From an uncultured Candidatus Saccharibacteria bacterium (GTDB lineage: Bacteria > Patescibacteriota > UBA1384 > CAILIB01), in contig CAZQKK010000001.1 in NCBI GenBank assembly GCA_964593885.1, forward strand, positions 24,066 to 88,065: DNA of 64,000 nt. Reading direction: 5' to 3'. This document shows positions 19,201-44,765 of this stretch, one piece after another. Positions within the stretch are counted from its first letter, which is position 1. Every line of letters begins with the position of its first letter. The notes beneath the pieces are model-generated. The model ran no database searches and was not told the DNA's origin. It saw only the letters and a program-made list of their open reading frames with translations. The position numbers and the translations under genes were made by a program.

Positions 19201-22200
19201 GGTAAATACTGGCACCTGGGTGGCTGAACCGTATGTTCCTACTGAACCCACGTTAGGAAGGCTTAGAGAAACGCTGCCGCCAAGCGCAACCGCACCACCA
19301 CCTGAGAGACCTGTGCCAGCAGTAACAGTGAGTGAAGAGTTGGCAAGTGCTGCATTTGCAACAGAACCATTTGGTAGCGATACCGCACCGGCAGTTACCG
19401 TAAAGCCACTGGCTACGGTGAGTGAACCAGTGAAGTTAGCAGAGGAACTAATGGTTTGGCCGTTGTAGGTTCCAGCGGTTAGGTTGCCTGCATTAATGGT
19501 CCCAGCAACAATGTTGCCGTCTTTATTTACACTTAGCTTGCTCACCCCATTCACCTGGAGATCCACTAAGTTTCCGGTGTAACCTCCGACAGCATTGAGA
19601 CCGATGAAGGTACCGGCTGCATCGCCCCCAACAATGGCATTCCCGAGGCGAAGGAGGCTACTGGTAGCCGAGGCGGCTGGAGCTCCAGTGAGCGATAGTG
19701 CTGTACCACCGGTGTTTGAACCGGTAATAAGGCCGGTAAACGTAGGGTTGTTCACAATGTTGAGGGTGGTACTCCCACCCAGTGAGACAGATCCACCGCC
19801 CGACAGGTTGGTACCAGCGGTAACGGTGAGTGAAGAGTTTGCTAGGTTGGCATTTGAGATGCCGGCAGTTCCAGAGAGATTTGCGTTAGTGAGACCTGTA
19901 ATGGTGTTTGTACCAGCATCGATGGTAGCGCCTGAAATGGTACCAGCATCCACGATACCAGCTCCACTGTTATCGATACCGTTCACCCCAAGCAATCCTC
20001 CAATAGAAACGTCATTAGTAACTGAAAGACCGGTACCGGCAGATGAGGCGGTAACCACCCCAGTAAAGGTTGGGTTGTTTACCACATTTAGGGTGGTTGA
20101 GGAACCAAGAGCTACAGATCCGCCACCAGTGAGGTTGGTACCAGCCGTTACCGTGAGAGATGCATTGGCAAGCTCAGCGTTATCAATAGAGCCATTTGGG
20201 AGCGAAACGGTACCAGAGGTAACCGTAAGTCCATTTGCAACGGTGAGCGAACCGGTAAGGTTAGCAGCTGCCGAGATGGTTTGACCATTGATAGTTCCAC
20301 TGGTGATGGTGCCACTACCCAAGCCAAGTGAGGTACCAATAATGGCGCCAGTATCTGAAACGCTGAAGGTGGTGGCACTATCGGTGGTGTTCCTCACCGC
20401 CATGGCGATTCCAGAAGTACCTCGGGTAACGGTGAAGGTTCCGTTGGTGGTGGTAGCCGTACCAATGGCCAGGGCGCCAGCCGCAAAGTTGAGGCCTGAA
20501 GCTGAAGCGATAGTGGTATTGCTGTCCCAGTAGGTAAGGGTGCCGGAACTTCCTGATCCAGTTACCCCACCACCTGCTGAACATGATCCCCAGGTAGGAA
20601 CACCGCCAGAGATAACGAGACACTGGTTGTTTGAACCGTTGGCGATAGCAGACCAAGCACCAGCCGAAATGTAAGGCACGCCAGTTGAGGCGCTTGAATC
20701 AAAGCCAGTGCCACCCCTATTTGGAGCAAGCTGACCAGTGGTGATTGCTGAAGCTGCGAGGGCAATACTGGTTGCCGAAACACCGGTTACCCTTCCCTGG
20801 GCATCAGTGGTGAAGACAGGCACCTGACTTGCTGATCCGTAGGTTGCAGCACTCCCCACATTTGGTAGTGAGAGGGTGGTAGAACTCCCAAGAGAAACCG
20901 CTCCGCCTCCGGAGAGGCCAGTGCCAGCAGTGACGGTGAGCGATGAGTTTGCAAGCTCGGTATTGCCAATTTCCCCGGCTGGGAGCGAAACGGTGCCGGC
21001 AGTTACCGTGAGGCCACCGCTGGTAATGGTGGTAGAACCCGAGGTGACGGCAAACACATCGGTACCATTGTTCTGGACGGCAAACTTGCCGGTAGAACCA
21101 GTGGCAATATTGACGATAAAGTTACTGTCTGTGGTGGTGTTTGCCAGGGTAACGGCAAAGTCTTTTGCATCAGTTGTGGTGATGGTGTTGCCATTCCCGT
21201 AGGCAGCCTGCAAGGTGTTTGAAGCCTGTGCACAGCTTCCCCAAGTTGGGATTCCTGCAGAGACAATGAGACAGTCCCCGTTTGAACCAATTGCGCGTTT
21301 TCCGAGGGTGTTGGCACCTGTGGCATAGATAATATCGCCAGTAGCGTAGCTGGAAAGGCCAGTTCCACCGTAGGTTTCGCCAATGGTTCTTCCGTGCCAG
21401 TCAAAACCAGAAATGGCATTGGTAACATCGCCAACGATATCGGCTCCATCCACAATGTTTACCTGGCTGACGTCTAGGGTGAGTGTTTGGAGGCCGCTAT
21501 TACCGAGGCTGATTGCCCCATTTGCAAGGATACCCACACTTCCACCTGGTGTTGACATTTGAATGGTGCCACCAGTAGCGGTTGCATCAAGGACAATACC
21601 TGGGAGCGAACCAACTGCAGTAAGTGAAGTAACACCAGCACTGGAGGTTGAAATATCAAGCCTATTTGAGGCGTTGTAACGGTTGCTAATCTGGTTTCCT
21701 GCGTTTGAGGTGACAGAGAGCGGCTGGGTAAAGGCATTGGATTGGGCGAGGTACGCAACGTTGCTGAGGGTACCATTTGCATTTACATCAAGCCCACCAA
21801 GCTGGAGAGCTGTGGTGGCATTAATGGTTGGAGCGGTAACCGAGGTAGCGAAACTTGGGTTCCCAATCACGCTAATTGAGGTACTTCCCCCCAGGGCTAC
21901 AGAACCACCACCGGTGAGGTTGGTTCCGGCAGACACCGTGAGTGAGGAATTTGCAAGCTCAGCATTGCCAATTTCGCCGGCAGGGAGCGAAACGGTTCCA
22001 GCACTTACCGTGAGGCCGTTGGCAACGGTGAGTGAGTTGCCACTAATGTCCCCTGTGCTGTTGATTGAGAGTACCGTTGCGTTATCAGCGGTATTCCTGA
22101 CTGCAAGGACGATGCCACTTGAAGCCTTCCTAACCGTGAGAGGAGCGATGGTTGAAGCCGTCCCAATTCCAAGCTCTGATGCGCCAGCGTTCCAGTTGAG

Positions 22201-23250
22201 ACCGGCTGTGTTGGCGATAGTTGATGCGCTATCCCAGTAGCTGAGCTGTCCAGTAACTCCTGATCCAGTAACTCCACCACCACTTGAACATGAACCCCAG
22301 GCAGGAACACCAGCGGTAATGATGAGACACTGGGTATTTGAGCCATTTGCGAGAACAGACCAGGTTCCGCCAGCAAGTACTGGGATACCCGTAGAGCCTG
22401 AGGTGTTGAGTCCGGTGCCACCGTACTGAGCCGCGATAACACTCCCCTGCCAGGACCCACTAATGACGGTGCCTAGCGTGCTATTTCCAGAAACGGTGAG
22501 GGTGGTGGCGTCAGCGGTAGCAACGTAGAGGTTGGCAAAACGGTTTCCGGTAGCACCAAGGTCAATGGTTCCTGAAGGTGTTAGGTTACCGGTAAAGCTA
22601 GTAACACCGAGCGTCTTGTTGGTGAAAGTCTCAGTTCCAGCAAGGGTAGCAAGGACACCAGTAGTTGGCAGGGTAACGCTGGTAGCACCTGTGGTAACCA
22701 GGCTCAAAGGATCAGCGCTAGTGGTAAAGCTGGCGCCAAAGCTGATGGTGGCGCTGTTTGGAATGGTGAGAGTACCCGTTGTGTCAGTAACCGTGAGGCC
22801 GCTCACCTTCTCAGCATTGATTGCCTGAGCAACAGCACCAATCTGGAGACGTGGTGTCATCTCACCGTCGCCGTTGAAGTTAATCCCTAGGTATACCCCG
22901 TCCTGGTTGAAGTTAACCGCGGAGGTGATTGGGTTTGAAGAACCAAGGTTGGTGCCAAAAATACTGTTAGTAACGGTGAGGTTCTTGGTCTCAGTCCAGA
23001 TTGGAGCTCCGCCGGTTGCAACGGTGTAGAGGCTGAAGGTAAAGGAGTACGAACCGGTAACAACCGTGGTTCCGTTGAGGTTAACAACACGTCCCTGGAA
23101 AGGAATCTGGCGATTGATACCTGAAGCAGCAAAAGCTGTAGGTGTCTGAACTACCCAAGAAAAGGCATTTGAGCATGCAAAAGCAACCACTCCGAAGAGT
23201 AGTACCCCGCCCCTGAGGAAATTTCGTGTGGCGAAGCGGTGTTGCGACAT
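7294..23250 (-). CDS. Giant secreted/surface protein A, 5318 aa. Signal peptide, repeated Cys-pair modules, about 20 BNR/Asp-box repeats forming three 6-8-bladed beta-propeller blocks, a fourth SGFGS-type propeller-like block and long Gly/Thr/Ser/Ala-rich repeats
   Basis: Single uninterrupted ORF in the track. N-terminus MSQHRFATRNFLRGGVLLFGVVAFACSNAFSWVV...AFAASG is signal-peptide-like. S-x-D-x-G-x-T-W motifs (IYTSSDYGATWTARDSSRNW) repeat roughly every 40 aa in blocks encoded at about 16250-17050, 15180-15900 and 13150-14000. A block of (S/T)xDG(T/S)(S/T)W(T/S)QVN(T/A)SGFGS repeats is encoded at about 9100-10060. A module YGGTG...ANGSNTQCL(I/V)I..GVP(A/T)WGSC recurs 3 times, and TQAAAGTYNFNLPT(A/T)AGTSGY recurs 3 times. 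Confidence 0.9.
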   Translation of the reverse strand: MSQHRFATRNFLRGGVLLFGVVAFACSNAFSWVVQTPTAFAASGINRQIPFQGRVVNLNGTTVVTGSYSFTFSLYTVATGGAPIWTETKNLTVTNSIFGTNLGSSNPITSAVNFNQDGVYLGINFNGDGEMTPRLQIGAVAQAINAEKVSGLTVTDTTGTLTIPNSATISFGASFTTSADPLSLVTTGATSVTLPTTGVLATLAGTETFTNKTLGVTSFTGNLTPSGTIDLGATGNRFANLYVATADATTLTVSGNSTLGTVISGSWQGSVIAAQYGGTGLNTSGSTGIPVLAGGTWSVLANGSNTQCLIITAGVPAWGSCSSGGGVTGSGVTGQLSYWDSASTIANTAGLNWNAGASELGIGTASTIAPLTVRKASSGIVLAVRNTADNATVLSINSTGDISGNSLTVANGLTVSAGTVSLPAGEIGNAELANSSLTVSAGTNLTGGGSVALGGSTSISVIGNPSFATSVTAPTINATTALQLGGLDVNANGTLSNVAYLAQSNAFTQPLSVTSNAGNQISNRYNASNRLDISTSSAGVTSLTAVGSLPGIVLDATATGGTIQMSTPGGSVGILANGAISLGNSGLQTLTLDVSQVNIVDGADIVGDVTNAISGFDWHGRTIGETYGGTGLSSYATGDIIYATGANTLGKRAIGSNGDCLIVSAGIPTWGSCAQASNTLQAAYGNGNTITTTDAKDFAVTLANTTTDSNFIVNIATGSTGKFAVQNNGTDVFAVTSGSTTITSGGLTVTAGTVSLPAGEIGNTELANSSLTVTAGTGLSGGGAVSLGSSTTLSLPNVGSAATYGSASQVPVFTTDAQGRVTGVSATSIALAASAITTGQLAPNRGGTGFDSSASTGVPYISAGAWSAIANGSNNQCLVISGGVPTWGSCSAGGGVTGSGSSGTLTYWDSNTTIASASGLNFAAGALAIGTATTTNGTFTVTRGTSGIAMAVRNTTDSATTFSVSDTGAIIGTSLGLGSGTITSGTINGQTISAAANLTGSLTVANGLTVTSGTVSLPNGSIDNAELANASLTVTAGTNLTGGGSVALGSSTTLNVVNNPTFTGVVTASSAGTGLSVTNDVSIGGLLGVNGIDNSGAGIVDAGTISGATIDAGTNTITGLTNANLSGTAGISNANLANSSLTVTAGTNLSGGGSVSLGGSTTLNIVNNPTFTGLITGSNTGGTALSLTGAPAASATSSLLRLGNAIVGGDAAGTFIGLNAVGGYTGNLVDLQVNGVSKLSVNKDGNIVAGTINAGNLTAGTYNGQTISSSANFTGSLTVASGFTVTAGAVSLPNGSVANAALANSSLTVTAGTGLSGGGAVALGGSVSLSLPNVGSVGTYGSATQVPVFTTDAQGRITGVTNTTIAGVDSGTLDGLDSTDFLRSTASTTFSGTNARTLTVQSSLVAGARSSALVNITQADNATYDSTASLLSITNSDDASTVAPLTVTNNSTVGGAEGIRVVGFQGTTKLSGDNLTLENGVTGLSLTVTASGITSPIDTEEYAINLMREGTSQLKVVNTEVGQVADLNLLDGSLLTNNTTRLTNGGTLQNVTYNGSTIAAQYGGTGQASYAVGDLLYASGATTLSKLTAGVNGQCLVLASGVPSWSSCATASVTLQAAYDNGNTIALTNARNLAFTLQDTATDPNFLINIATGSTGKFAVQNNGTDVFSVTSGDIVSTLDITATGFQVQTGGSCSMFTATYLNFDPSCGGGAGISGDGTDVTVSPNASGSFYVTGSGSLGLVGATSGTVSITTQAAAGTYNFNLPTAAGTSGYFLTSAGGGATAMTWTDPSTLSVSTATNLAGGAAGNIPYQTGAGATSFVGGSAGQILSSNGSSAPTFINLASTLTQGSNISITGTTNPTIAVVSNPTFSGLVTGQAGLTVTGATVNLNASSNFATNIGTGTSTGAITLGGGLNTFAVDSTAFDVSTAGVISGITGITTSGGYTQSGSGANTFSGASTFSTTGANAVAITGAPAASATSSLLQLGSAVVGGSTAGTYLGVNSGSGFTGNFADFQVNGSSKLSVDYQGNLTTAGSINFNNMQLQMLSGTPAGSGSSSSLFFGRNRVTTDGGDASISSFGQSWTQRGSAQSYWTGVATSGDGRYLTGTVYGGQIYTSSDYGVTYTARDSNRNWNDVAISADGRYQTAAGDSTQIYTSSNYGATWTARDSSRTWKQVAMSADGKYQIAGETGANKVFTSSDYGATWTDRGAQGVASATQLAVSANGSKMAVAGNPARISSDYGVTWGNAATIAGGGSYYALALSDDGKRMVSAKYFGGISISEDFGTSWTTMSIGSGSWLRVKMSSDGSRMVTGNNNRAYVSSDYGLTWSNYPIASTFSAFNFENLDISADGKRIVVAPDSSPGYIYTSVAQENTLLANLTVNAGSAFQGSLLKVQSGGQDRFTISDSGSLAVTDAFLGKTFSVTGGVTTAYGQLTVAGGFTPLSSWNPVGTVTGLSEPSVSTTGQYQAAVKNGGKIYTSSDYGATWTARDSDRGWFEVAVSGGGQYQAAVVNSGQIYTSSDYGATWTARDSSRGWQDVAISDDGQYQAATVYGGQIYTSSNYGVTWTPRDSSRNWYDIAVSSTGQYQTAVVLSGLIYTSSDYGATWVSQDSSRVWTAVAMSDSGQYQTALKISTNQIYTSSDYGDNWTARDSSWSWSDVAISGDGTLQLVSASDGNGTYYIYKSTDYGVTWVTLGLTVNKAWQAIALSGDGKYGLVATSDYLYQSVPLTPSLIVSTGGASITGLITGNTGLTITGGVASINASSNFATNINTGTSTGAVTIGGGSNTFAVDSTALDISTAGAITGVTGITTSGAYTQSGSGANTLTGVTTFSAAGTALAVTNNATIGGTLNGQTISATASLTGTLSVATSVTSPIVNVGTAGASTGALNLSGATSGTVTIQTQAAAGTYNFNLPTTAGTSGYILTSGGGGAGAMTWTNPSALGVSWSSLTAPTGNLSLNMGTNTTAFDYATGTGSNNLFSLTTANSSNGTGYLLNIATGTSSTVKPLRVSAAGTDIITVAANGATVLAGTTTVSGALSATAAGTGLSVTNNISIGGQISLAGQILQRLNGSSTSPIERLAFGRTLLGSQSVDETAENFGALWTARDSNRNWTGIASSADGKYQAATVYGGNIYTSSNFGVTWTSRDSSRNWQDVAVSADGSRQTAVVDGGQIYTSSDYGATWAPQDSNRAWHAIAVSADGKYQTAAHYGGQIYTSSDYGATWTPRDSSRIWTSMAMSADGKYQSSTVWNDKIYVSSDYGATWTPKDSNRQWNEGIAMSANGAYQTAGVQSGQIYTSSDYGATWTGRDSSRNWNDMQISDDGARQVAGEYNGTIYVSTDFGVTWASKESSRYWNHFAMSADGKYMSATVDGGQIYTSVTEKTTQYAGLAVTGALSGSAGLTVTGGTINLNVSSNFATNINTGTSTGAITLGGGLNTFAVDSTALDISTAGAITGVTGITSSGSYTQSGSGANTLTGVTTLSAAGTALSVTNNASIGGTLSVGGVPNAGYATAFASSNTADLPGIYGIAYGTAAATYGNAGLRGTGYVTTGTGYGLGVYGVSDGPRAGGTNIGAYFTASGAASNYALLTGAGNVGIGTDTPLSALVVGGAGGVNAGFEIDVSTGITTQAYNRNTLGYATYNIDGSVINLRPGGSVTAAVSSGLLAVTGSVSSTTGFLTNNNQSYKAKNFAGTGVDIAYLDTADALQLIGRAGGINLNVAGAAAPITFTINGGEAARFSSTNRNLLVGTASDDGVNKLQVAGGIATTGGYTQSGSSANTFTGATSVTSGSLTVSNTSNSALSVTSTTGRADGILSGAAGNFRMYQMQTGGSIRWGIYTSSEAESGSNAGSNFGIARYDDAGAYLADAFTINRATGLTTIAGATTLSTSVTSPIVNVGTAGASTGALNLSGATSGTVTIQTQAAAGTYNFNLPTTAGTSGYVLTSAGGAGSPMTWTDPAALSVRWNSIASPTGNQSLTMGTNTTTWNYATGTSTNNLFNLTTDASANGTGALLNIQTGASSTVLPMRIRAGAVEGLLVDASGNVGVGTIAPGAKLSISTNGTSLLSLTHDATNGVISTSTGAINLQPASGTLAINKSGVQNRLRVYGSGGSVYGELTNDNTNTILTSSSGELQLQGTGTNQFILGSVGTAMNLVFEESATISGQGGNTITVGQSGDTFNLNASGVTYNVGTLTSTGATLNTSATGTVAFTINGPAGLTANLLNLAVNSSNRLTVTTAGALSTVSSLTSTLTGANALAITGAPQASATASLVQLGSTIAGGSASGTFLGLNATGGFAGNFVDFQVSGTNFFKVTSSGATSSAATSAVFAANSATESAFQATGTPTSNAAKSLLQLGSAIASGSTGGNYLGINSGSGFTGNFLELEKNGTQVLAVTADAQFNLTGAAIATTSWTQGNTSGFGSAANTAITGAITHNDALYYATTNTSTGTQIFRSTNGTSWTQVNTSGFGSANNTTAVLGSYAGTIYAATTNSSTGAQVWSSVDGSTWTQVNASGFGSASRTTATAITVFGGAAYVSTANGETFRSFNGTTWTLAADLGGSNGSGVRSFFSAQGYLYAASAASSGGAYLQRSQNGTTWSAVGSVGFGDTNNTEFASALYFNGAYYFGTKNTTSGTKLYRSYDLSTFTQVNGSGFGSANNTTVQSMVAYNGGLYAVTGNTSTGSQVYYSADGSSYSQVNTSGFGSSSSSTSYSALAFKGNLIVSVGNASVGTQIWYAQTGTIKSTTAGLAVKSAQIGDVLIENATIKGVSELTAGTISAQTIGVKSLQVADGIAVNSSPTFVGNLAEYKANDTTVLATTISGATKLSPWSFTSVLQTTTAESAFTDITSTANAGGAYNVYKNSGALNDRTYYGFSDSSFTSILYTETSGSGGATGFEVCTELTSGVCTTWTAISGGSDGTTGLTASGTVSWTNTLTKGTVSGISAYWVRLTVSSGMSVQANGRVRISSFETSLATDAGVAFMLQAPYTASVTGWSTNGTFIGANRETAFSGNFLDFRAAGTAVFSVSASGGITVAPTSVSTTLLSVTQIASQTADTIAVGKVFVVDTTGKLASSESLPGVPTVGVDPNSGATRGDLTTSSGPLRPFAGAGLTLNITAGAAYTADHYTSGSRTTVRRCVIPSDTSIAMTASTTEYVYLIASTTDTTTGKQCTVAKNATLPTFNAQYPVLVLAKVVSGASITSVADTRFFIGSTLVYAVSTSSVEPGSIVIQNTSVDGQVDDSSSAAATGVAGITAIGNTASGIFILNTSGTAWAQAVSGAARGVCAGTSTTTGSVNNITAAVTACAGRVMTNAASATPAVLVQISPN

Positions 23251-40403: not shown

Positions 40404-40528
40404 ACTTCATCATCTCGATATCTTAGCAAAATGAGCGGTGTGAGCAAGTTCAGGTTGACCAGAGGTATGAAATCGGGTAGGTTATATGGGTTGAAATAAC
40501 TGTGGAAACACAGCTATTCTCGGGGGCT

Positions 40529-40606
40529 ATCGTGCTTCGCACGATGCGACCCTCGCAAGTCATCAACTCTCGTGGGCTCGATTTGCTTCGCAAATCGCGA
40601 CCCTCG
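40529..40606 (+). repeat. Two copies of a palindromic hairpin motif with a TTC loop (atcgtgcTTCgcacgat; gatttgcTTCgcaaatc), each followed by gcgaccctcg. They lie about 50-125 nt upstream of tRNA-Pro
   Basis: 40529-40555 and 40580-40606. Similar hairpins recur at 42654-42672 and 42967-42981 upstream of other tRNAs. Confidence 0.7.
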
Positions 40607-40653
40607 TCGAAATCCAAAAGCGAAAACTTGTTTTCACTTTTGTCTTTCTCCTC

Positions 40654-40729
40654 GGGGCGTAGCACAGTTGGCTAGTGCGCCTGGTTTGGGACCAGGAGGT
40701 CCGCAGTTCGAGTCTGCGCGCCCCGACCA
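40654..40729 (+). tRNA. tRNA-Pro (anticodon UGG)
   Basis: CGGGGCGTAGCACAGTTGGCTAGTGCGCCTGGTTTGGGACCAGGAGGTCCGCAGTTCGAGTCTGCGCGCCCCGACCA. Acceptor CGGGGCG/CGCCCCG, anticodon loop TTTGGGA, CCA encoded. Closely resembles bacterial proM. Confidence 0.9.
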
Positions 40730-40819
40730 AGAAAGAACCTGCAGTAATGCGGGTTTTTTCTTGTCAAAATATAGTATTGACGGGAAAGGTTCTATGGCTT
40801 ATACCGAACATATACCGAT

Positions 40820-41512
40820 ATGCCAAAACTACCCATCCCTCCCCAAACAATCGAAAAAATACGAAACCTGCGCAAGGAAGGTTACTCGTTGAGGGATATT
40901 GAGCGACTAGTTCCTCATAGCAGATCTACTCTCCACAAATACACCTCAGATATCCTCTTTGTGCAGAATGGTGATTCAAAGAATTCTGCAACTATTGAAC
41001 AATACAACAAGAGAACTAGGCTTCGTGAAGCAAAGCTATTTAAACAAGAAAAGGCTGCAGAAGATCTTTTGCCCGATATTACTAACCAGGAGCTCTTCTA
41101 CCTTGGTCTAGGAATTTATATTGGAGAGGGAACAAAAACACATCACCAAACCAGAATTACAAACTCTGACCCAACAGTGTTACTGATCTGTAAAACCTGG
41201 CTAATCAAGTGTCTTAACGTTCCAGAAGATAACATTCGCATTGCGCTTCATATTTATCCAGACGTATCTGAAAGGGCTTCAATAGACTATTGGTCAAATA
41301 CATTAAACATTTCTCAGTCACAATTCTATAAATGCACGACTGACTTGAGAAATAAGTCAAAAACTGGTAGAAACAACAGGGTACTACAGTACGGAACAGC
41401 TCAGATGTATGTAACCGCCAATGGGAATAAGAATTTTGGCTCAAGGTTACATGACGTTATAATGAGCTACATCGATAGATCAAAATACCTTGCGGGTATG
41501 GTTCAATGGTAG
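40820..41512 (+). CDS. AT-rich ORF (230 aa) with N-terminal HTH and a LAGLIDADG-like motif (LGLGIYIGEG). Putative homing-endonuclease-like mobile gene whose last 21 nt overlap tRNA-Gly
   Basis: N-terminal HTH IEKIRNLRKEGYSLRDIERLVPHSRSTLHKY. Motif ELFYLGLGIYIGEGTK resembles the single LAGLIDADG motif plus the downstream Lys. About 38-40% GC versus about 52% in flanks. The reading frame ends ...KYLAGMVQW-TAG inside tRNA-Gly (41492-41512). Confidence 0.4.
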   Translation: MPKLPIPPQTIEKIRNLRKEGYSLRDIERLVPHSRSTLHKYTSDILFVQNGDSKNSATIEQYNKRTRLREAKLFKQEKAAEDLLPDITNQELFYLGLGIYIGEGTKTHHQTRITNSDPTVLLICKTWLIKCLNVPEDNIRIALHIYPDVSERASIDYWSNTLNISQSQFYKCTTDLRNKSKTGRNNRVLQYGTAQMYVTANGNKNFGSRLHDVIMSYIDRSKYLAGMVQW

Positions 41513-41565
41513 AATTCCTCCCTTCCAAGGAGAAGATGCGGGTTCGATTCCCGCTACCCGCTCCA
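41492..41565 (+). tRNA. tRNA-Gly (anticodon UCC)
   Basis: GCGGGTATGGTTCAATGGTAGAATTCCTCCCTTCCAAGGAGAAGATGCGGGTTCGATTCCCGCTACCCGCTCCA. The 3' half is nearly identical to E. coli glyT. Anticodon loop CTTCCAA. Confidence 0.9.
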
Positions 41566-41582
41566 AGATTTCTCAAGTACAT

Positions 41583-41657
41583 GGAGGCCATGGTGTAGTG
41601 GTAACACAACAGATTGTGGATCTGTTATCACGGGTTCGATACCCGTTGGCCTCCCCA
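41583..41657 (+). tRNA. tRNA-His (anticodon GUG) with encoded G-1 and CCA
   Basis: G-1 pairs with C73. Acceptor GAGGCCA/TGGCCTC, D-stem GTGT/ACAC, anticodon stem ACAGA/TCTGT, loop TTGTGGA, T-loop TTCGATA. Confidence 0.85.
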
Positions 41658-41664
41658 ATAAAAG

Positions 41665-41699
41665 GACAAATTGCCTCGTGTAATTTGTCTTTTTATTTT
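41665..41699 (+). terminator. Intrinsic terminator after tRNA-His (GACAAATT-gcctcgtgt-AATTTGTC followed by a T-run)
   Basis: ggacaaattgcctcgtgtaatttgtctttttatttt. Confidence 0.7.
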
Positions 41700-41760
41700 G
41701 AGCGAAATAATGGGTATTGAACCCGTGAGCTGAGGGATGTATCCCGAAGCTGCATAGTGA

Positions 41761-41780
41761 GATACCCGTTGGCCTCCCCA
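41761..41780 (+). repeat. Exact 20-bp direct repeat of the tRNA-His 3' end (gatacccgttggcctcccca; original copy at 41638-41657). att-like scar
   Basis: Identical 20-mers 123 bp apart, with a terminator and tRNA-fragment-like sequence between them. Confidence 0.8.
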
Positions 41781-41837
41781 AGAATGAACATCACCTAGGT
41801 GGTGTTTTTTCTTTTGCCTGAAGCCTACAATAGAGAC

Positions 41838-42572
41838 ATGCACGCTACCTCAACCGTTTTCTGGCTCTCACTGCTCACCGCAGCCACAACAGCCCTAGGT
41901 GCGCTTCCCCTCATGTTCTGGAAGCAGAGCCGACACGGCTGGCAGAGCTACGGTAACTCGGTTGCAGCTGGGTGCATGCTTGGTGCTAGCGTCCTCCTAG
42001 TTGTCCACGGCCTCGATACTAACGTTCTTGGTGTACTTGCTGGAATTCTCATCGGAGCACTCGCAGTCTGGATCACCCAGGTAATAGTTGAGAAACATAA
42101 GGCTTTCCACCTCAAGGGAATGACGGCAATCACCGCTCGAAAAGCCTTTCTCATTGTGAGCATCATGACCATCCACTCGGCTATGGAAGGGTTGAGCATT
42201 GGTGTTTCCTTTGCCGAGAGCGGGAACTTTGGTCTCATCGTGGTTGCCGCCATGGCACTCCAGAACATACCCGAGGGACTGGCCATCTCGCTGGTTCTCG
42301 TACCTCGAGGAGCAACCATTCTGGCAGCAGCTTTCTGGAGCTTCTTCTCAAGCATCCCTCAGGTACTCTTTGCTGTTCCCGCATTCGCGTTTGTGGAGCG
42401 ATTCCACCCGTTCCTCGCACCAGGCTTAGGATTTGCAGCTGGAGCAATGGCGTGGATGTGCTTCAAAGACCTTATCCCTGAAGCAAGTCAGCACCTTGGT
42501 GGTGAGCGAGTCTGGCTCACCGTGACGCTCACCGGTATCGCAACCTTCCTTCTAGATGCCCTCCTGAACTAA
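41838..42572 (+). CDS. zupT: ZIP-family divalent metal (zinc) transporter, ZupT-like. The ORF track starts at GTG 41799; ATG 41838 is preferred
   Basis: 8 TM helices and the ZIP signature HSAMEGLSIGVSFAESGNFGLIVVAAMALQNIPEGLAISLVL. Confidence 0.8.
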   Translation: MHATSTVFWLSLLTAATTALGALPLMFWKQSRHGWQSYGNSVAAGCMLGASVLLVVHGLDTNVLGVLAGILIGALAVWITQVIVEKHKAFHLKGMTAITARKAFLIVSIMTIHSAMEGLSIGVSFAESGNFGLIVVAAMALQNIPEGLAISLVLVPRGATILAAAFWSFFSSIPQVLFAVPAFAFVERFHPFLAPGLGFAAGAMAWMCFKDLIPEASQHLGGERVWLTVTLTGIATFLLDALLN

Positions 42573-42727
42573 AACCTGGAAAAAAGGGTGGTAATCTGGT
42601 AGTGTACGGCAAGCGAGTTTTTCTGCGCCGTATCGATGCAGTAAAGCAGCGCCGTATCGCTTTCAGCGATACAAGGCACTCGCTCGCATGAAAAGAGAAA
42701 GCCAGCTTTCTCTTTCCCTTCTCGCTC

Positions 42728-42803
42728 GCGCCTGTAGCTCAGTGGATAGAGCATCTGTCTTCGGAACAGAGGGTCGGGGGTTCGATCCCCTCCAGGCGCG
42801 CCA
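42728..42803 (+). tRNA. tRNA-Arg (anticodon UCG)
   Basis: GCGCCTGTAGCTCAGTGGATAGAGCATCTGTCTTCGGAACAGAGGGTCGGGGGTTCGATCCCCTCCAGGCGCGCCA. Anticodon stem TCTGT/ACAGA, loop CTTCGGA (U33, TCG, G37). Confidence 0.75.
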
Positions 42804-42817
42804 AATCACCCAAACAT

Positions 42818-42894
42818 GTCCCGATAGCTCAGTTGGATAGAGCGAGAGCCTTCTAAGCTCTAGGTCGCTGGTTCGATCCCAGCTCGGGACGCCA
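42818..42894 (+). tRNA. tRNA-Arg (anticodon UCU)
   Basis: GTCCCGATAGCTCAGTTGGATAGAGCGAGAGCCTTCTAAGCTCTAGGTCGCTGGTTCGATCCCAGCTCGGGACGCCA. Resembles bacterial argU. Confidence 0.9.
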
Positions 42895-42996
42895 GTATTC
42901 AGGTTACACCTGGTTGCCTACTGATAATTTTTCTGGTACTATTTTTCCGTTACTTCGCAGGTCTCAGTCGCTTTCGGCGACAGTGACTCTCGCTTC

Positions 42997-43071
42997 GGGT
43001 CTATAGCTCAATGGTAGAGCAGTGCCCTCTTAAGGCATTGGTTCTGGGTTCGAGTCCCAGTGGGCCCACCA
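42997..43071 (+). tRNA. tRNA-Lys (anticodon CUU)
   Basis: GGGTCTATAGCTCAATGGTAGAGCAGTGCCCTCTTAAGGCATTGGTTCTGGGTTCGAGTCCCAGTGGGCCCACCA. Anticodon loop CTCTTAA. Confidence 0.85.
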
Positions 43072-43086
43072 AAATATTCAACAACC

Positions 43087-43164
43087 AGGCGCGGTCGTCT
43101 AGTTGGTCCAGGACATCAGATTCTCATTCTGAAGATCACGGGTTCGAATCCCGTCCGCGCTACC
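43087..43164 (+). tRNA. tRNA-Glu (anticodon CUC)
   Basis: GGCGCGGTCGTCTAGTTGGTCCAGGACATCAGATTCTCATTCTGAAGATCACGGGTTCGAATCCCGTCCGCGCTACCA. Glu-type D-arm (GTCTAG..CCAGGAC), anticodon loop TTCTCAT. The 5' boundary is +/-1 nt. Confidence 0.8.
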
Positions 43165-43172
43165 AAAAAGAG

Positions 43173-43204
43173 AAACTCTATCGCAAGATAGGGTTTTTCT
43201 TTTT
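43173..43204 (+). terminator. Intrinsic terminator after tRNA-Glu (CTCTATC-gcaa-GATAGGG followed by a T-run)
   Basis: aaactctatcgcaagatagggtttttcttttt. Confidence 0.7.
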
Positions 43205-43216
43205 GTATTGAGATTA

Positions 43217-43349
43217 AACGGGATTCGTTCGTGCTTCTGGCGTAAGTAAGCGAAGCGCTACAGACCAGAAAGCGATGCGAAGCATGTACCTACAAGGAAA
43301 TGTCACATGCTGGGAGCATGTGATTAGAACGAATCCCGTCCGCACTCCA
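43217..43349 (+). repeat. Structured ~130-nt non-coding segment. An inverted copy (43217-43229) and a direct near-copy (43328-43349, 19/21 identical) of the tRNA-Glu 3' end form a 13-bp long-range helix. It encloses internal hairpins including TCACATGC-tggga-GCATGTGA
   Basis: acgggattcgttc is the rc of gaacgaatcccgt. cgaatcccgtccgc is identical to tRNA-Glu positions 43144-43157. Confidence 0.7.
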
Positions 43350-43383
43350 AGGTGAAAGAGCGCAAGTTTGGTACCATACATGT

Positions 43384-44754
43384 ATGCATGAATCGCCTAT
43401 TACCAAACCGCAGATTCCCGATGCAGAGACTACCTTGGTGCCAGAAACCGAGCCATTTGAGTTTGTATACATTCAACGTGAAATCGACCAAAAGTTCATT
43501 GCTGCTCGTTCGCTCCAAATTGTCGAAAGTGCGCGTTCAGAAAACGCACAAAGCTTCATTTTCCTGGATAAATCAGCACGTCCGCTCAACGAAGTTGTTC
43601 GGGAAACCTGGAGATATACCACTGACACCCCACCTCCTCCTACCTACTTCTTTAACATTGGTCGAGAACTCTCATCACCACTTTTCAGTAATCAAGAGAA
43701 CGGTCCACATACAACTATTAGCCCTGGTCTTCTCAACTTACTGTCAGACGCGGAGGCCCTTGAAGCCTACAGACGGCAGTATCGCGGTCTGAATAACCTT
43801 CCTGAAGGAGCTCAGGTCATGATTATTGATGATGTGAGCTCGAGCGGTTCAACGCAAAGAAATGCGCTAGACGCGCTGGAGCTTATGTTCCCGCATATAC
43901 ACTTCACCTTTGAGAGTTTCGTGCCTCAGCACGCTTCAATCCAAAAAAGCGATCAAGAAGAACCAGGCCTGTACTTTCGCAATTCTAGCGTTCACTTGGG
44001 AGAATACATTTTGCCACCTTGGAGTCATAAACCAGGCATAACAGGCGTCACAGACCCAATCCCAAGTATTAATGAAACTAACCTCGTTTCTCGGAAAGTT
44101 CCAAATAGAGCGGAAAGACCAGAAACATCGCCAGCAATAGAGCATGAGCAGGGTATGAGTGGCAACGAAGAGGAGTACGAGCTTCTACCAAACCAGGTTA
44201 ATTACAACACCAGGTTTACTACTCCAGAAGCGCTCTCAAATCTATCAAATGCCCTCGCAGTGGAGGTTAGCGGAATCCTTAGTAACATTGGCCAAAGTTC
44301 GGAATCTGAAAATGTAAGGAGGCTACTCCAAGAAGTTCCGAATTTTGTTCATACACAGAGTATGTCTGCAACTCTCATCGAGTGGGAGCGAGAGCCAGAG
44401 GTAGATGTACTCGTTCTTAACAATCTAAAAGCTCTCCTTTACCGTTTTAATTCTTGGTGCCAACAAGTCAGAGAAAGCGTCACCAGCTGCACTACTGATT
44501 TGGATTTCGATCAAAGAGAAAAGTTGCAAATTCACCTTGATAACCTTCAGAAGATTTTTTTAACGAATATCACTGAGAGATCAGAGCAATTTGAAACCAT
44601 GTTTACCGAAGACAACAACCATACTGACTATGCTTCCACAAACGAAGTGTTACAGTTAAAAAAAGAATTGAAGCAAATCCTTGAAAAATATATTTCGCAT
44701 TCATCAGAAGAAGAACTGCAAGAGCTAAAACATTGGCTTGAGGCACAGCAGTAA
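43384..44754 (+). CDS. Hypothetical protein with an N-terminal phosphoribosyltransferase (PRTase type I)-like domain and an acidic helical C-terminal half (456 aa)
   Basis: PRPP-binding-loop-like motif GAQVMIIDDVSSSGSTQRNALDAL (four hydrophobics, DD, then xxxxGxT). The C-terminal ~250 aa are E/L/Q-rich. GC is lower than the surroundings (about 43-46%). Confidence 0.45.
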   Translation: MHESPITKPQIPDAETTLVPETEPFEFVYIQREIDQKFIAARSLQIVESARSENAQSFIFLDKSARPLNEVVRETWRYTTDTPPPPTYFFNIGRELSSPLFSNQENGPHTTISPGLLNLLSDAEALEAYRRQYRGLNNLPEGAQVMIIDDVSSSGSTQRNALDALELMFPHIHFTFESFVPQHASIQKSDQEEPGLYFRNSSVHLGEYILPPWSHKPGITGVTDPIPSINETNLVSRKVPNRAERPETSPAIEHEQGMSGNEEEYELLPNQVNYNTRFTTPEALSNLSNALAVEVSGILSNIGQSSESENVRRLLQEVPNFVHTQSMSATLIEWEREPEVDVLVLNNLKALLYRFNSWCQQVRESVTSCTTDLDFDQREKLQIHLDNLQKIFLTNITERSEQFETMFTEDNNHTDYASTNEVLQLKKELKQILEKYISHSSEEELQELKHWLEAQQ

Positions 44755-44765
44755 GTACCCGTCCC

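What the first reader, a model, noticed from the sequence alone, without database searches (positions are those of the whole stretch)
41638..43349. Duplicated tRNA 3' ends: att-like scars next to tRNA-His and tRNA-Glu in an 8-tRNA hotspot
An exact 20-bp copy of the tRNA-His 3' end lies 123 bp downstream of the gene (41761-41780). A 19/21 copy of the tRNA-Glu 3' end lies about 170 bp downstream (43328-43349), with an inverted copy (43217-43229). The inverted and direct copies form a 13-bp helix closing a structured ~130-nt segment. Direct repeats of tRNA 3' ends are the footprints of site-specific integration or excision (attL/attR), but no integrase is present. These may be scars of past integrative elements, or a tRNA-derived small RNA. 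Downstream lie the lower-GC PRTase-like and methyltransferase genes.
Basis: seen in the sequence. Interest (0 to 1): 0.5.

Follow-up and report, generated by a model that had tools for sequence, protein, structure and literature searches.

The report
tRNA-linked repeats in a CPR bacterium
Two tRNA genes in this small-genome (Patescibacteria) bacterium are each followed by a short inserted piece of DNA that ends in a copy of the tRNA's own tail, the same arrangement known in E. coli since 1978 as "tRNA-linked repeats", whose origin and purpose are still unexplained.

Summary
An exact 20/21-nt copy of the tRNA-His T-loop-to-CCA segment lies at 41761-41781. A 14-nt exact (19/21) copy of the tRNA-Glu 3' end lies at 43330-43349, with a perfect 13-nt inverted partner at 43218-43230.

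Comparison with relatives shows short insertions of 123 bp and 185 bp. They entered at the T-loop, or equivalently just after the CCA. The downstream copy plus its terminator is the displaced original 3' end. The insert supplies a new 3' end, a new terminator and an inverted copy of the target.

The same layout (direct copy, terminator, inverted copy, hairpins, direct copy) recurs at tRNA-Arg, tRNA-Pro, tRNA-Glu(ttc) and tRNA-His in related Patescibacteria. It also occurs in an alphaproteobacterium and in Alistipes. It matches the E. coli tRNA-linked repeats (tyrT RtT units and the rrnB T1-T2 spacer).

The His insert is 86-92% conserved where neighbouring synonymous sites are saturated, and hairpins in related elements covary. 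No recombinase lies within 10 kb.

Verdict: these are TLR-like elements in a new phylum. "Integration scar" is only partly right. How they insert and what they do remain open.

The parts
41584..41657 (+). tRNA-His(GTG), intact, with encoded G-1 (41583) and CCA. Its last 20 nt (41638-41657) are direct copy 1.
41657..41697 (+). Terminator T1 of the His insert: hairpin arms 41657-41672 and 41682-41697, A-tract before and T-tract after. It is the centre of a roughly 100-bp imperfect palindrome, 41628-41728.
   Evidence: I6; 41658-41728 against 41696-41628, 71.8%. Identity to relatives 40/40 (L038) and 37/40 (L042).
41709..41728 (+). Inverted copy of the tRNA-His T-arm (18/20). It forms the 5' arm of the rod.
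   Evidence: I2
41708..41771 (+). 64-nt rod hairpin: inverted copy paired with direct copy 2, with two tandem GA/GA internal loops and apical hairpin GGGAnnnnTCCC. GAG 41700-41702 can pair with CTC 41774-41776, leaving a CCCA tail.
   Evidence: (z=-5.6 on the + strand, -2.35 on the - strand)
41761..41781 (+). Direct copy 2 of the tRNA-His T-loop-to-CCA(A) segment. This is the displaced original 3' end.
41786..41815 (+). Terminator T2, the ancestral tRNA-His terminator, homologous to the single terminator of L058. The ZIP gene follows (ATG 41838).
42804..42817 (+). Empty site. 14 bp separate tRNA-Arg(TCG) and tRNA-Arg(TCT) here. L038 carries an 88-bp TLR-like insertion at this place (68 bp plus an exact 20-bp copy of the tRNA-Arg 3' end).
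43088..43165 (+). tRNA-Glu(CTC), intact. Its segment 43145-43165 is direct copy 1.
43164..43205 (+). Terminator T1 of the Glu insert (arms 43164-43182 and 43187-43205), centre of the palindrome 43145-43227. Homologous to the terminator after tRNA-Glu(TTC) in L053.
   Evidence: I4; 73% over 63 nt; L053 77.8% over 45 nt
43218..43230 (+). Inverted copy, 13/13 complementary to 43327-43339. It forms the 5' strand of the closing helix.
   Evidence: I9
43231..43326 (+). Structured interior with four predicted hairpins. Its 3' module 43286-43337 is 80.8% identical to the element after tRNA-Arg(TCG) in L058. It contains hairpin 43304-43322, which covaries with the L058 and L038 Arg elements.
43327..43349 (+). 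Direct copy 2 of the tRNA-Glu 3' end (14 exact, 19/21), 35 nt upstream of the 456-aa PRTase-like ORF (43384-44754).
43168..44762 (+). Segment with no counterpart in the close relative L038, which has 4.4 kb of other genes here, including a 108-aa fragment with a borderline Recombinase-domain match (21.6 bits against a 21.1 cutoff). This is the variable island downstream of tRNA-Glu.

Best explanation
Both features are tRNA-linked-repeat (TLR)-like elements.

Structure (shown):
- A short piece of DNA, 123 bp at tRNA-His and 185 bp at tRNA-Glu, was inserted at the T-loop. Equivalently, it was inserted right after the CCA; the two descriptions cannot be told apart.
- The insert brings its own copy of the T-loop-to-CCA segment, which keeps the tRNA intact. 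It also brings a new terminator (T1), an inverted copy of the same segment, and one or more small hairpins.
- The original 3' end, and for His its original terminator, is pushed downstream as the second direct copy.
- The inverted copy can pair with either direct copy. With the first it forms a long palindrome centred on T1. With the second it closes a rod or multi-hairpin domain whose 3' tail is the acceptor strand plus CCA.
- Also shown: the insertion polarity, the recurrence at other tRNAs and in other phyla, the conservation, the hairpin covariation in related elements, and the identity of layout with E. coli TLRs.

Mechanism and function (inferred):
- The pieces were probably placed by a site-specific process acting in trans, since no enzyme is encoded nearby. 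One possibility is a recombinase of a resident integrative element.
- The pieces are retained because the sense-strand transcript, made by read-through of T1, is a structured RNA. This is what happens with the E. coli rrn TLRs.
- That RNA would be trimmed to a tRNA-like 3' end by the tRNA 3'-processing machinery.
- Its cellular role is unknown, as it is for E. coli TLRs.
For: 1. Exact repeats beyond chance.

2. Empty sites in relatives:
- tRNA-His in L058, L055 and L053 is followed by one terminator and then ZIP.
- The window's copy 2 plus T2 is homologous to that native terminator, while T1 and the interior match nothing local.
- Reciprocally, the window is empty where L038 has an 88-bp insert with a 20-bp repeat at tRNA-Arg.

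3. Same layout elsewhere:
- tRNA-Pro in L055 and L064.
- tRNA-Glu(TTC) in L053.
- tRNA-Arg in L058.
- tRNA-Ser in alphaproteobacterial MAGs L009 and L013, where L012 is an empty site and copy 2 is followed by the native terminator.
- tRNA-Arg(TCT) in Alistipes L030 and L036: same overall layout (direct copy, interior hairpins, displaced copy), but no inverted copy was seen in L036.

4. Shared interior module between elements at different tRNAs. Window Glu 43286-43337 matches the L058 Arg element at 80.8% over 52 nt (E about 3e-7). An 8-bp hairpin is 100% paired, with 3 doubly changed pairs.

5. Constraint on the His insert. Its interior is 95/103 and 89/103 identical to L038 and L042. ZIP four-fold degenerate sites are only 63/138 and 35/110 identical.

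6. The Pro elements of L055 and L064 keep their hairpins, with 7 of 36 pairs compensatory.

7. The sense strand folds better than the antisense strand (z -5.6 against -2.35).

8. E. coli comparison:
- The tyrT/tyrV RtT units have GGGGAAGGAT (inverted), an interior, then AATCCTTCCCCCACCACCA (19-nt tRNA-Tyr end). Rfam's consensus closes the RNA with exactly that helix and ends at CCA.
- The rrnB T1-T2 spacer has an 18-nt repeat of the 5S 3' end, a palindrome centred on T1 (35-nt arms, 80%), and T2.
- Stenum et al. 2021 (PMC8144298) define TLRs by this 18-19-bp 3' identity. They show that the rrn ones are transcribed by T1 read-through and processed.
Against: - No recombinase, transposase or HUH enzyme lies between the repeats or within about 10 kb.
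- No donor element or free copy was found in viral contigs, phage records or metagenome contigs.
- There is no expression data. T1 looks like an efficient terminator, so transcription of the element is not shown.
- The Glu copy has lost the CCA (..CTCCAA) and has two mismatches, so a tRNA-like 3' end is doubtful there.
- Within the His element the lower rod shows no compensatory changes among three sequences (0 of 41 pairs). The high conservation could also reflect recent lateral spread or gene conversion rather than function.
- Rfam RF00391 does not match, so homology to E. coli TLRs is not demonstrated. Only the layout and short motifs are shared.
- The L038 Arg and L053 Glu elements do not fold better than shuffles.
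Confidence: 0.6

Rival explanations
1. Decayed scars of large integrative elements. A prophage or ICE integrated at the T-loop through a tyrosine or serine integrase, then lost everything except its two ends.
For: - The repeat runs from the T-loop to CCA, typical of tRNA attachment sites.
- Related genomes carry ICEs with large serine recombinases overlapping tRNA-Glu(TTC) (L055) and tRNA-Arg(TCG) (L060, L061) of the same cluster.
- L038 has a 108-aa fragment with a borderline Recombinase-domain match downstream of tRNA-Glu.
- Content after tRNA-Glu differs between strains.
Against: - The instances found, at roughly ten tRNA loci, are all 88-210 bp with no gene fragments. Random decay should leave a wide size range.
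- The ICE junction in L055 has no T1-like terminator and no similarity to the small elements.
- The regular third, inverted copy is not predicted.
- Strong conservation and covariation do not fit neutral debris.
Confidence: 0.15
2. Local origin without foreign DNA. Tandem duplication of the block [tRNA 3' end + terminator + spacer], or replication template-switching at the terminator hairpin, followed by divergence. Any conservation would be due to terminator function.
For: - In L055 (tRNA-Pro), copy 1 plus T1 and copy 2 plus T2 are 79% alike over 58 nt.
- In E. coli rrnB the repeat extends 30 nt into both terminators.
- The palindrome centred on T1 is what a strand switch at a hairpin would produce.
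- E. coli tyrT units are tandem.
Against: - For the window's His element, T1 is unlike T2 and the interior matches nothing local. The sequence after T2 is unlike the interior.
- The same holds for L013 against L012.
- The shared interior module at two different tRNAs needs transfer between loci.
Confidence: 0.1
3. A self-targeting mini mobile element that uses its inverted copy as a nucleic-acid guide. In single-stranded form the inverted copy pairs with the target (the tRNA 3' end) and with the element's own end, defining both cut sites. The logic would resemble IS200/IS605 guide/cleavage-site pairing or the folded attP of CTXphi. The enzyme would be supplied in trans.
For: - The direct-inverted-direct layout fits. 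The inverted and direct copies always match the local tRNA.
- One interior lineage sits at tRNA-Arg and at tRNA-Glu.
- Hairpins are kept by compensatory change, which suits folded single strands.
- A stable GCGAAGC mini-hairpin recurs just upstream of the end.
- Presence/absence is patchy across lineages.
Against: - No candidate enzyme was found (no HUH, Y1 or Xer-type partner identified).
- There are no multiple copies within one genome region.
- No free or circular form is known.
- Retargeting would need coordinated change of two segments.
- Everything here is inference from layout.
Confidence: 0.1
4. A cis-regulatory leader (attenuator or riboswitch) of the downstream gene (ZIP transporter, PRTase-like gene), built from a structured domain followed by a terminator.
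For: The His rod is followed by terminator T2 and then the ZIP gene 23 nt later. The block is highly conserved.
Against: - T2 is simply the ancestral tRNA terminator and predates the element.
- I saw no alternative pairing between rod and T2 on manual inspection of the sequence.
- The same layout sits before unrelated genes, or before another tRNA (L038 Arg; E. coli tyrT-tyrV).
- The Glu element has no terminator after it.
Confidence: 0.04

Closest known systems
E. coli tRNA-linked repeats (TLRs): the tyrT/tyrV 178-bp repeats, also known as RtT RNA (Rfam RF00391, rttR). Egan & Landy 1978 and Rudd 1999, as cited in PMC8144298.
   Same: - Lies directly downstream of a tRNA gene, in the same orientation.
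- Its 3' end is an 18-20-nt copy of the tRNA's 3' end through CCA.
- An upstream inverted copy pairs with it to close a domain of about 130 nt with several hairpins.
- Function is unknown.
   Different: - No detectable sequence or covariance-model similarity.
- Single copy rather than a tandem array.
- A strong terminator separates the tRNA from the element here, but not at tyrT.
- Patescibacteria rather than Enterobacterales.
- Insertion polarity and empty sites are documented here.
E. coli rrn-operon TLRs rrA/rrB/rrF, the spacer between terminators T1 and T2 of rrnB (Stenum et al. 2021, PMC8144298).
   Same: - Closest match in layout to the His element: stable-RNA 3' end, T1, imperfect inverted copy forming a palindrome centred on T1, hairpin interior, 18-nt direct copy of the 3' end, T2.
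- In E. coli it is transcribed by T1 read-through and processed. It is conserved in sequence and structure across an order.
   Different: - The upstream gene is 5S rRNA, not a tRNA.
- The GGA motifs and Hfq/CsrA binding reported there were not examined here. Whether this genome encodes Hfq or CsrA was not checked.
- RF00391 scores it only 17 bits.
Displaced tRNA fragments at the ends of integrase-borne genomic islands (attL/attR; Islander, PMC4383910; tycheposons, bioRxiv 10.1101/2020.12.28.424599).
   Same: A regenerated tRNA plus a displaced 3' fragment as a direct repeat starting in the T-loop. tRNA clusters act as hotspots, with repeated events at one site.
   Different: No integrase or cargo lies between the repeats. 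The insert is only 100-185 bp. There is an extra inverted copy and a conserved structured interior.
Non-autonomous derivatives of integrative or transposable elements (CIMEs of streptococcal ICEs; MITEs and PATEs). Named from my own knowledge.
   Same: Short, gene-less, hairpin-rich units bounded by the recombination sites of a larger family and presumably moved in trans.
   Different: No autonomous partner with matching ends was found. There are no terminal inverted repeats. Copy number per genome region is one per tRNA.
Folded single-strand recombination sites: CTXphi attP(+), integron attC, IS200/IS605 ends. Named from my own knowledge, as an analogy only.
   Same: An inverted and a direct copy of a target-like sequence, separated by tens of bases, lie at one end of the inserted DNA. 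Structure is conserved more than sequence.
   Different: No XerCD, IntI or TnpA link was tested or found. The target is a 20-nt stable-RNA 3' end.

Membership tests
tRNA-linked repeats (TLR class, as defined in PMC8144298) | Located in a tRNA or rRNA operon, immediately downstream of the stable-RNA gene and in the same orientation. | tested here: met
   The His element starts 1 nt after the CCA and the Glu element likewise.
tRNA-linked repeats (TLR class, as defined in PMC8144298) | 18-19 bp at the element's 3' end are identical to the 3' end of the upstream gene. | tested here: met
   His: 20/20, or 21 with the next base. Glu: 14 exact and 19/21, with the CCA degraded, so this is met for His and only partly for Glu.
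tRNA-linked repeats (TLR class, as defined in PMC8144298) | Transcribed with the operon and processed to a discrete RNA (shown for rtT and RrA/B/F). | not testable with these tools
   No expression data. Only fold statistics and sense-strand bias.
RtT RNA, Rfam RF00391 | Covariance-model score at or above the gathering score of 45 bits. | tested here: not met
   No RtT hit in the window at gathering score, at E<=5, or at E<=10 on the isolated elements. Positive control: E. coli tyrT units score 133-138 bits. The E. coli rrnB TLR itself scores only 17 bits.
RtT RNA, Rfam RF00391 | A closing helix formed by an inverted copy and the tRNA 3'-end copy, with a single-stranded acceptor/CCA tail. | tested here: met
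   Rfam consensus structure compared with the predicted folds of 41698-41785 and 43207-43354.
Integrase-borne tRNA island (attL/attR) | A direct repeat made of the tRNA segment from the crossover point to the 3' end, with an intact regenerated tRNA. | tested here: met
Integrase-borne tRNA island (attL/attR) | An integrase gene between the repeats, normally next to one end. | tested here: not met
   Only 103 and 164 bp lie between the copies. No recombinase domain was found in ORFs from 31200 to 53699.
Integrase-borne tRNA island (attL/attR) | An empty site in related genomes. | tested here: met
   His: L058, L055 and L053. Arg: window empty against L038 filled.
IS200/IS605-type or CTXphi-type single-strand elements | A cognate enzyme (Y1 HUH transposase or XerCD use) and characteristic cleavage or dif-like sites. 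| not tested
   Analogy of layout only. No such gene was seen in the ORFs scanned.
Riboswitch or attenuator leader | Mutually exclusive pairing between the sensor domain and the terminator. | tested here: not met
   The rod (41708-41771) and T2 (41786-41813) do not overlap in the predicted fold. I saw no alternative pairing on manual inspection of the sequence. T2 predates the element.

The most novel reading that the evidence does not exclude
TLR-like elements are a pan-bacterial class of tiny mobile insertions that home to the 3' ends of stable-RNA genes.

- Their internal inverted copy would act as a guide that pairs with the target and with the element's own end.
- On that reading, one interior lineage was retargeted from tRNA-Arg(TCG) to tRNA-Glu(CTC) in these Patescibacteria.
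- The E. coli TLRs, including the rrnB T1-T2 spacer present in many cloning vectors (from my own knowledge), would be fixed and domesticated copies of the same kind of element.
Probability: 0.12. Interest if true: 0.85.

Novelty: new variant of a known kind. Interest (0 to 1): 0.5.

Why it matters
TLRs have been an unexplained feature of E. coli stable-RNA operons since 1978. A 2021 paper still states that they have no known function, and in what I read they are described only from Enterobacterales.

Here the same layout turns up in a Patescibacteria genome and, incidentally, in an alphaproteobacterium and in Alistipes. Three things were not evident from E. coli alone:
- Clean filled and empty alleles show that the elements are insertions which displace the original 3' end.
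- There is a constant three-copy (direct-inverted-direct) design.
- One interior lineage sits at two different tRNAs.

In a genome of about 1 Mb, the element is also far more conserved than neighbouring synonymous sites. If the pattern holds in a census, the origin and role of TLRs become testable by comparative genomics and by RNA work in cultivable Saccharibacteria and E. coli.

Practical point: genome annotators and island finders that read any displaced tRNA fragment as an island border would mis-call these elements.

Tried and rejected
- Rfam at gathering score and at permissive E-values on the window and on the isolated elements gave only tRNAs and noise. There was no ribozyme, T-box or RtT hit.
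- I considered a hammerhead reading of CUGAGGGAU...CCCGAAGC. By eye the A9 position is a G, and there is no CM hit, so I rejected it.
- I considered a tRNA or pseudo-tRNA on the minus strand of 41698-41790. ARAGORN and Rfam find nothing there, and the acceptor strands do not pair.
- I looked for a split or intron-containing second tRNA. No 5' half is present.
- A genome-contig scan with the ZIP protein gave no syntenic relatives, with a best hit of 44%.
- A metagenome scan for the His rod core returned 9 hits, all chance matches in high-GC DNA.
- Viral-contig scans for the His 20-mer, the rod core and the Glu/Arg hairpin module gave 0 hits.
- blastn against phage records gave 0 hits.
- An exact look-up of the window's ZIP protein found nothing on record.
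- I searched for a second tRNA-Glu fragment at the right border of the islands. Only short matches turned up (CCGTCCGC in L038 at 11767-11774, CCCGTCC in the window at 44758-44764), which are not above chance.
- The L038 fragment with a borderline Recombinase-domain match is not similar to the L055 serine recombinase.
- I considered a small ORF in the rod (MGIEPVS*). It is not conserved in L038.
- A sigma-70-type promoter scan found none for the elements.
- The shared motifs (GCGAAGC, CCCGAAG, TGAG before the copy) are post hoc and were not tested rigorously.


Full report
**1. Observation**

The window carries eight tRNA genes, seven of them in a same-strand cluster at 40653-43165 (ARAGORN; Rfam).

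tRNA-His:
- The gene is at 41584-41657.
- The 20-mer GATACCCGTTGGCCTCCCCA, running from the T-loop to the CCA, occurs at 41638-41657 and again at 41761-41780.
- There is no further match in 64 kb even with three mismatches, and no shuffle gave two hits.

tRNA-Glu:
- The gene is at 43088-43165.
- Its segment CGAATCCCGTCCGC is repeated exactly at 43330-43343 and continues as 19/21.
- A perfect 13-nt inverted partner lies at 43218-43230.
- The enclosed segment folds far better than shuffles (z=-4.5).

The segment 41709-41728 is the reverse complement of the His T-arm (18/20). It pairs with the direct copy to give a 64-nt rod (41708-41771) with two tandem GA/GA internal loops. The fold has z=-5.6 on the sense strand and only -2.35 on the antisense strand.

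**2. Organism and relatives**

Neighbouring genes encode RNase Y, YmdB, HU and an AI-2E transporter, so this is cellular DNA. The RNase Y protein has relatives named 'Patescibacteria group bacterium'. Several relatives lie on contigs of 0.44-0.95 Mb.

Syntenic loci were fetched through the ZIP transporter and RNase Y:
- L038-L041 (ZIP 95% amino-acid identity).
- L042 and L043 (79%).
- L053 (50%).
- L055 and L058-L065 (RNase Y 74-86%).

**3. The copies are products of insertion, and the downstream copy is the original**

The His element is present at the same place in the window, L038 and L042/L043. In L058, L055 and L053, tRNA-His is followed by one terminator and then directly by the ZIP gene.

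The window's second copy plus the terminator after it (41761-41815) is homologous to that single native terminator block of L058 (79.7% over 59 nt, E=1.5e-7). The first terminator and the interior match nothing else.

Hence 123 bp were inserted. The insert can be written as [copy 1 - T1 - inverted copy - hairpin] entering at the T-loop. It can equally be written as [T1 - inverted copy - hairpin - copy 2] entering after CCA-A. The two cannot be distinguished.

The reverse case also exists. The window has 14 bp between tRNA-Arg(TCG) and tRNA-Arg(TCT), whereas L038 has an 88-bp insertion ending in an exact 20-nt copy of the tRNA-Arg 3' end.

Downstream of tRNA-Glu, homology between the window and L038 stops right after the CCA (43167) and resumes at the methyltransferase gene (44763). 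L038 carries four other genes there, one of them a 108-aa fragment with a borderline Recombinase-domain match. L043 keeps a degenerate version of the Glu element without its hairpin core.

**4. The pattern recurs**

A script ran ARAGORN and then blastn-short of each tRNA against its own locus. It found the following in Patescibacteria:
- tRNA-Pro in L055 and L064/L065. There is an exact 18-20-nt copy about 160 bp downstream, an inverted 11-14-mer in between, and terminators after both copies.
- tRNA-Glu(TTC) in L053, with a 16-nt copy.
- tRNA-Arg(TCG) in L058, with an 18-nt inverted copy and the direct copy decayed to GATCCC.
- A mirror-image case at the 5' end of tRNA-His in L058.

Unexpectedly, loci from other phyla that had been fetched only for ZIP homology show it as well:
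- tRNA-Ser(GCT) in alphaproteobacterial MAGs L009 and L013 has a 202-bp insert. It consists of a new terminator, an inverted T-loop copy, hairpins, a 19-nt copy, and then the native terminator. L012 is the empty site and L011 carries a different insertion.
- tRNA-Arg(TCT) in Alistipes L036 and L030 carries homologous elements. No inverted copy was seen in L036.

In each clear case, the first direct copy, T1 and the inverted copy form one long imperfect palindrome centred on the T1 loop. In the window these span 41628-41728 and 43145-43227. L058 shows 84% over 50 nt.

**5. A family, not debris**

The 3' part of the window's Glu element (43286-43337) is 80.8% identical to the element behind tRNA-Arg in L058 (E about 3e-7). 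It also aligns with the L038 Arg element.

An 8-bp hairpin (43304-43322 in the window) is paired in all three, with double, pair-preserving changes at three positions. Only 7 of 500 shuffles reached the observed covariation score, and all slid controls fail. That hairpin motif occurs nowhere else in the window or in the other loci.

The two tRNA-Pro elements keep four hairpins, with 7 of 36 pairs compensatory.

The His insert interior is 95/103 and 89/103 identical between the window and L038 or L042. Four-fold degenerate sites of the adjacent ZIP gene are only 63/138 and 35/110 identical, which is essentially saturated.

Either the element is under strong purifying selection or it spread recently. 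Neutral decay of an old scar is excluded.

**6. What it corresponds to**

The layout is that of the E. coli tRNA-linked repeats. I fetched the K-12 tyrT-tyrV region (L066) and the rrnB 3' end (L067).

tyrT-tyrV region:
- Each 178-bp tyrT unit (Rfam RtT, 133-138 bits) contains GGGGAAGGAT. This is the inverted copy of the tRNA-Tyr T-stem/acceptor strand.
- A hairpin interior follows, and then AATCCTTCCCCCACCACCA, the 19-nt tRNA-Tyr 3' end.
- The Rfam consensus closes the RNA with exactly that helix and ends at CCA.

rrnB T1-T2 spacer:
- It has the 18-nt 5S 3' end twice (145-162 and 313-330).
- It has a palindrome centred on T1 with 35-nt arms at 80%, and then T2.
- This is the same direct-T1-inverted-interior-direct-T2 order as the window's His element.

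Stenum et al. 2021 (PMC8144298) report the following:
- There are 22 TLRs at ten loci in K-12.
- The defining feature is 18-19 bp at the 3' end identical to the 3' end of the upstream tRNA or rRNA gene.
- The rrn TLRs lie between dual terminators. They are transcribed by read-through of T1, are processed, and bind Hfq and CsrA.
- The earlier stringent-response claim for rtT was retracted.
[quoted passage not shown]'

Membership:
- The window's His element meets the TLR definition.
- The Glu element meets it partly, because its CCA is degraded.
- Neither is a member of Rfam RF00391 (no hit at E<=10). That model also scores E. coli's own rrnB TLR at only 17 bits, so the miss says little about class membership.

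Short motifs are shared across phyla, but this is a post hoc observation. GCGAAGC lies 33-34 nt from the end in the Pro elements and in one tyrT unit. It is also present in rrnB and in Alistipes L030.

**7. Mechanism: what is shown and what is inferred**

Shown:
- The insertion polarity, the target (T-loop to CCA) and the three-copy design.
- The recurrence, the constraint and the structural covariation.
- The absence of any recombinase within 10 kb in the window.

Inferred:
- The pieces were placed by a site-specific process supplied in trans.
- Candidate actors exist in the clade. ICEs with large serine recombinases (54% identical to each other) sit with their recombinase ORF running antisense through tRNA-Glu(TTC) in L055 and through tRNA-Arg(TCG) in L060 and L061.
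- However, their junctions share nothing with the small elements, so a direct link is not shown.
- By analogy with rrB, the elements may be expressed by T1 read-through as a structured RNA whose 3' end is trimmed like a tRNA.

A plain attL/attR scar does not explain the inverted copy. A tandem-duplication origin fails for the His element because T1 is unlike T2 and the interior is foreign. A guide-like role of the inverted copy in target choice, with IS200/IS605-like or CTXphi-like folded-strand logic, would explain the design and the Arg-to-Glu relationship. It has no enzyme and no direct evidence behind it.

**8. Verdict**

The finding is real. Its 'integration footprint' reading is half right: it is an insertion with a displaced 3' end at a hotspot. 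The 'scar of a lost island' part is not supported.

The best label is TLR-like element. That is a known but unexplained kind, here in a distant phylum, in non-homologous sequence, and with unusually clear evidence of how the arrangement arose. Interest is moderate, and it would rise sharply if the guide-directed mobility reading were confirmed.

Noticed in passing
window 40820-41512 (+): A 230-aa ORF between tRNA-Pro and tRNA-Gly. It has a weak N-terminal resolvase-type HTH and a LGLGIYIGEG motif resembling LAGLIDADG. Its only PDB matches, to I-DmoI, are non-significant (E 0.5-0.8). It has the lowest GC of the region (0.38). L038 has an unrelated 233-aa ORF on the other strand at this spot, and L042 has both. 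It may be a free-standing homing-endonuclease-like gene in the tRNA cluster.
   Followed up: partly
window 40527-40606: Two 23-nt direct repeats (TGCTTCGCA..GCGACCCTCG) lie 51 bp apart. Each contains a small hairpin. They sit just upstream of tRNA-Pro.
   Followed up: no
L055 3036-4636; L060 4082-5698: Large serine recombinases (529 and 538 aa, 54% identical) lie at the edge of T4SS-bearing conjugative elements. Their ORFs run antisense through tRNA-Glu(TTC) and tRNA-Arg(TCG). The C-terminal ..G(S/D)RTP is encoded by the antisense T-arm.
   Followed up: partly
L058 9043-9135 (- strand): A mirror-image case at the 5' end. A copy of the tRNA-His leader plus positions 1-18 lies 63 bp upstream of the gene. 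It is followed by an inverted copy (CCACTACA) that makes a hairpin with it.
   Followed up: partly
L042 6926-7351; L043 2039-2464: A NUDIX hydrolase gene is inserted between the two tRNA-Arg genes, which are 14 bp apart in the window. In L053, L055 and L058, blocks of 2-4 genes sit between tRNA-Arg(TCT) and tRNA-Lys. Nearly every spacer of this tRNA cluster is variable.
   Followed up: no
L058 4096-4222; L053 5043-5144: Cobalamin and AdoCbl-II riboswitches (Rfam, above gathering score) sit upstream of DUF4430 genes, inside the gene blocks inserted in the tRNA cluster.
   Followed up: no
L066 and L067 (E. coli); L055 9287-9293; L064; L030; window 43250-43256 and 43277-43283: The GCGAAGC mini-hairpin motif recurs shortly upstream of the displaced copy in TLR-like elements of three phyla. 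It starts 33-34 nt from the element end in the Patescibacteria tRNA-Pro elements and in one E. coli tyrT unit.
   Followed up: partly
L067 145-370 (E. coli rrnB T1-T2): From my own knowledge, the rrnB T1T2 terminator cassette used in many expression vectors contains a complete TLR: the 5S 3'-end copy, an inverted copy and an interior hairpin.
   Followed up: partly
window 41838-42572; L009, L013, L036: ZIP-family metal transporter genes lie next to TLR-bearing tRNA genes in Patescibacteria, an alphaproteobacterium and Alistipes. The loci were fetched by ZIP homology, so this may be pure sampling bias.
   Followed up: no
window 7294-23250 (-): A single 5318-aa ORF, a giant protein. L057 has a 7052-aa one near the same RNase Y neighbourhood.
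   Followed up: no
window 43384-44754 (+): A 456-aa ORF with no Pfam family and only a short, weak phosphoribosyltransferase-like stretch (residues about 135-170, NCBIfam E about 3e-3). It is absent from the close relative L038 and is the only cargo of the variable segment after tRNA-Glu.
   Followed up: partly
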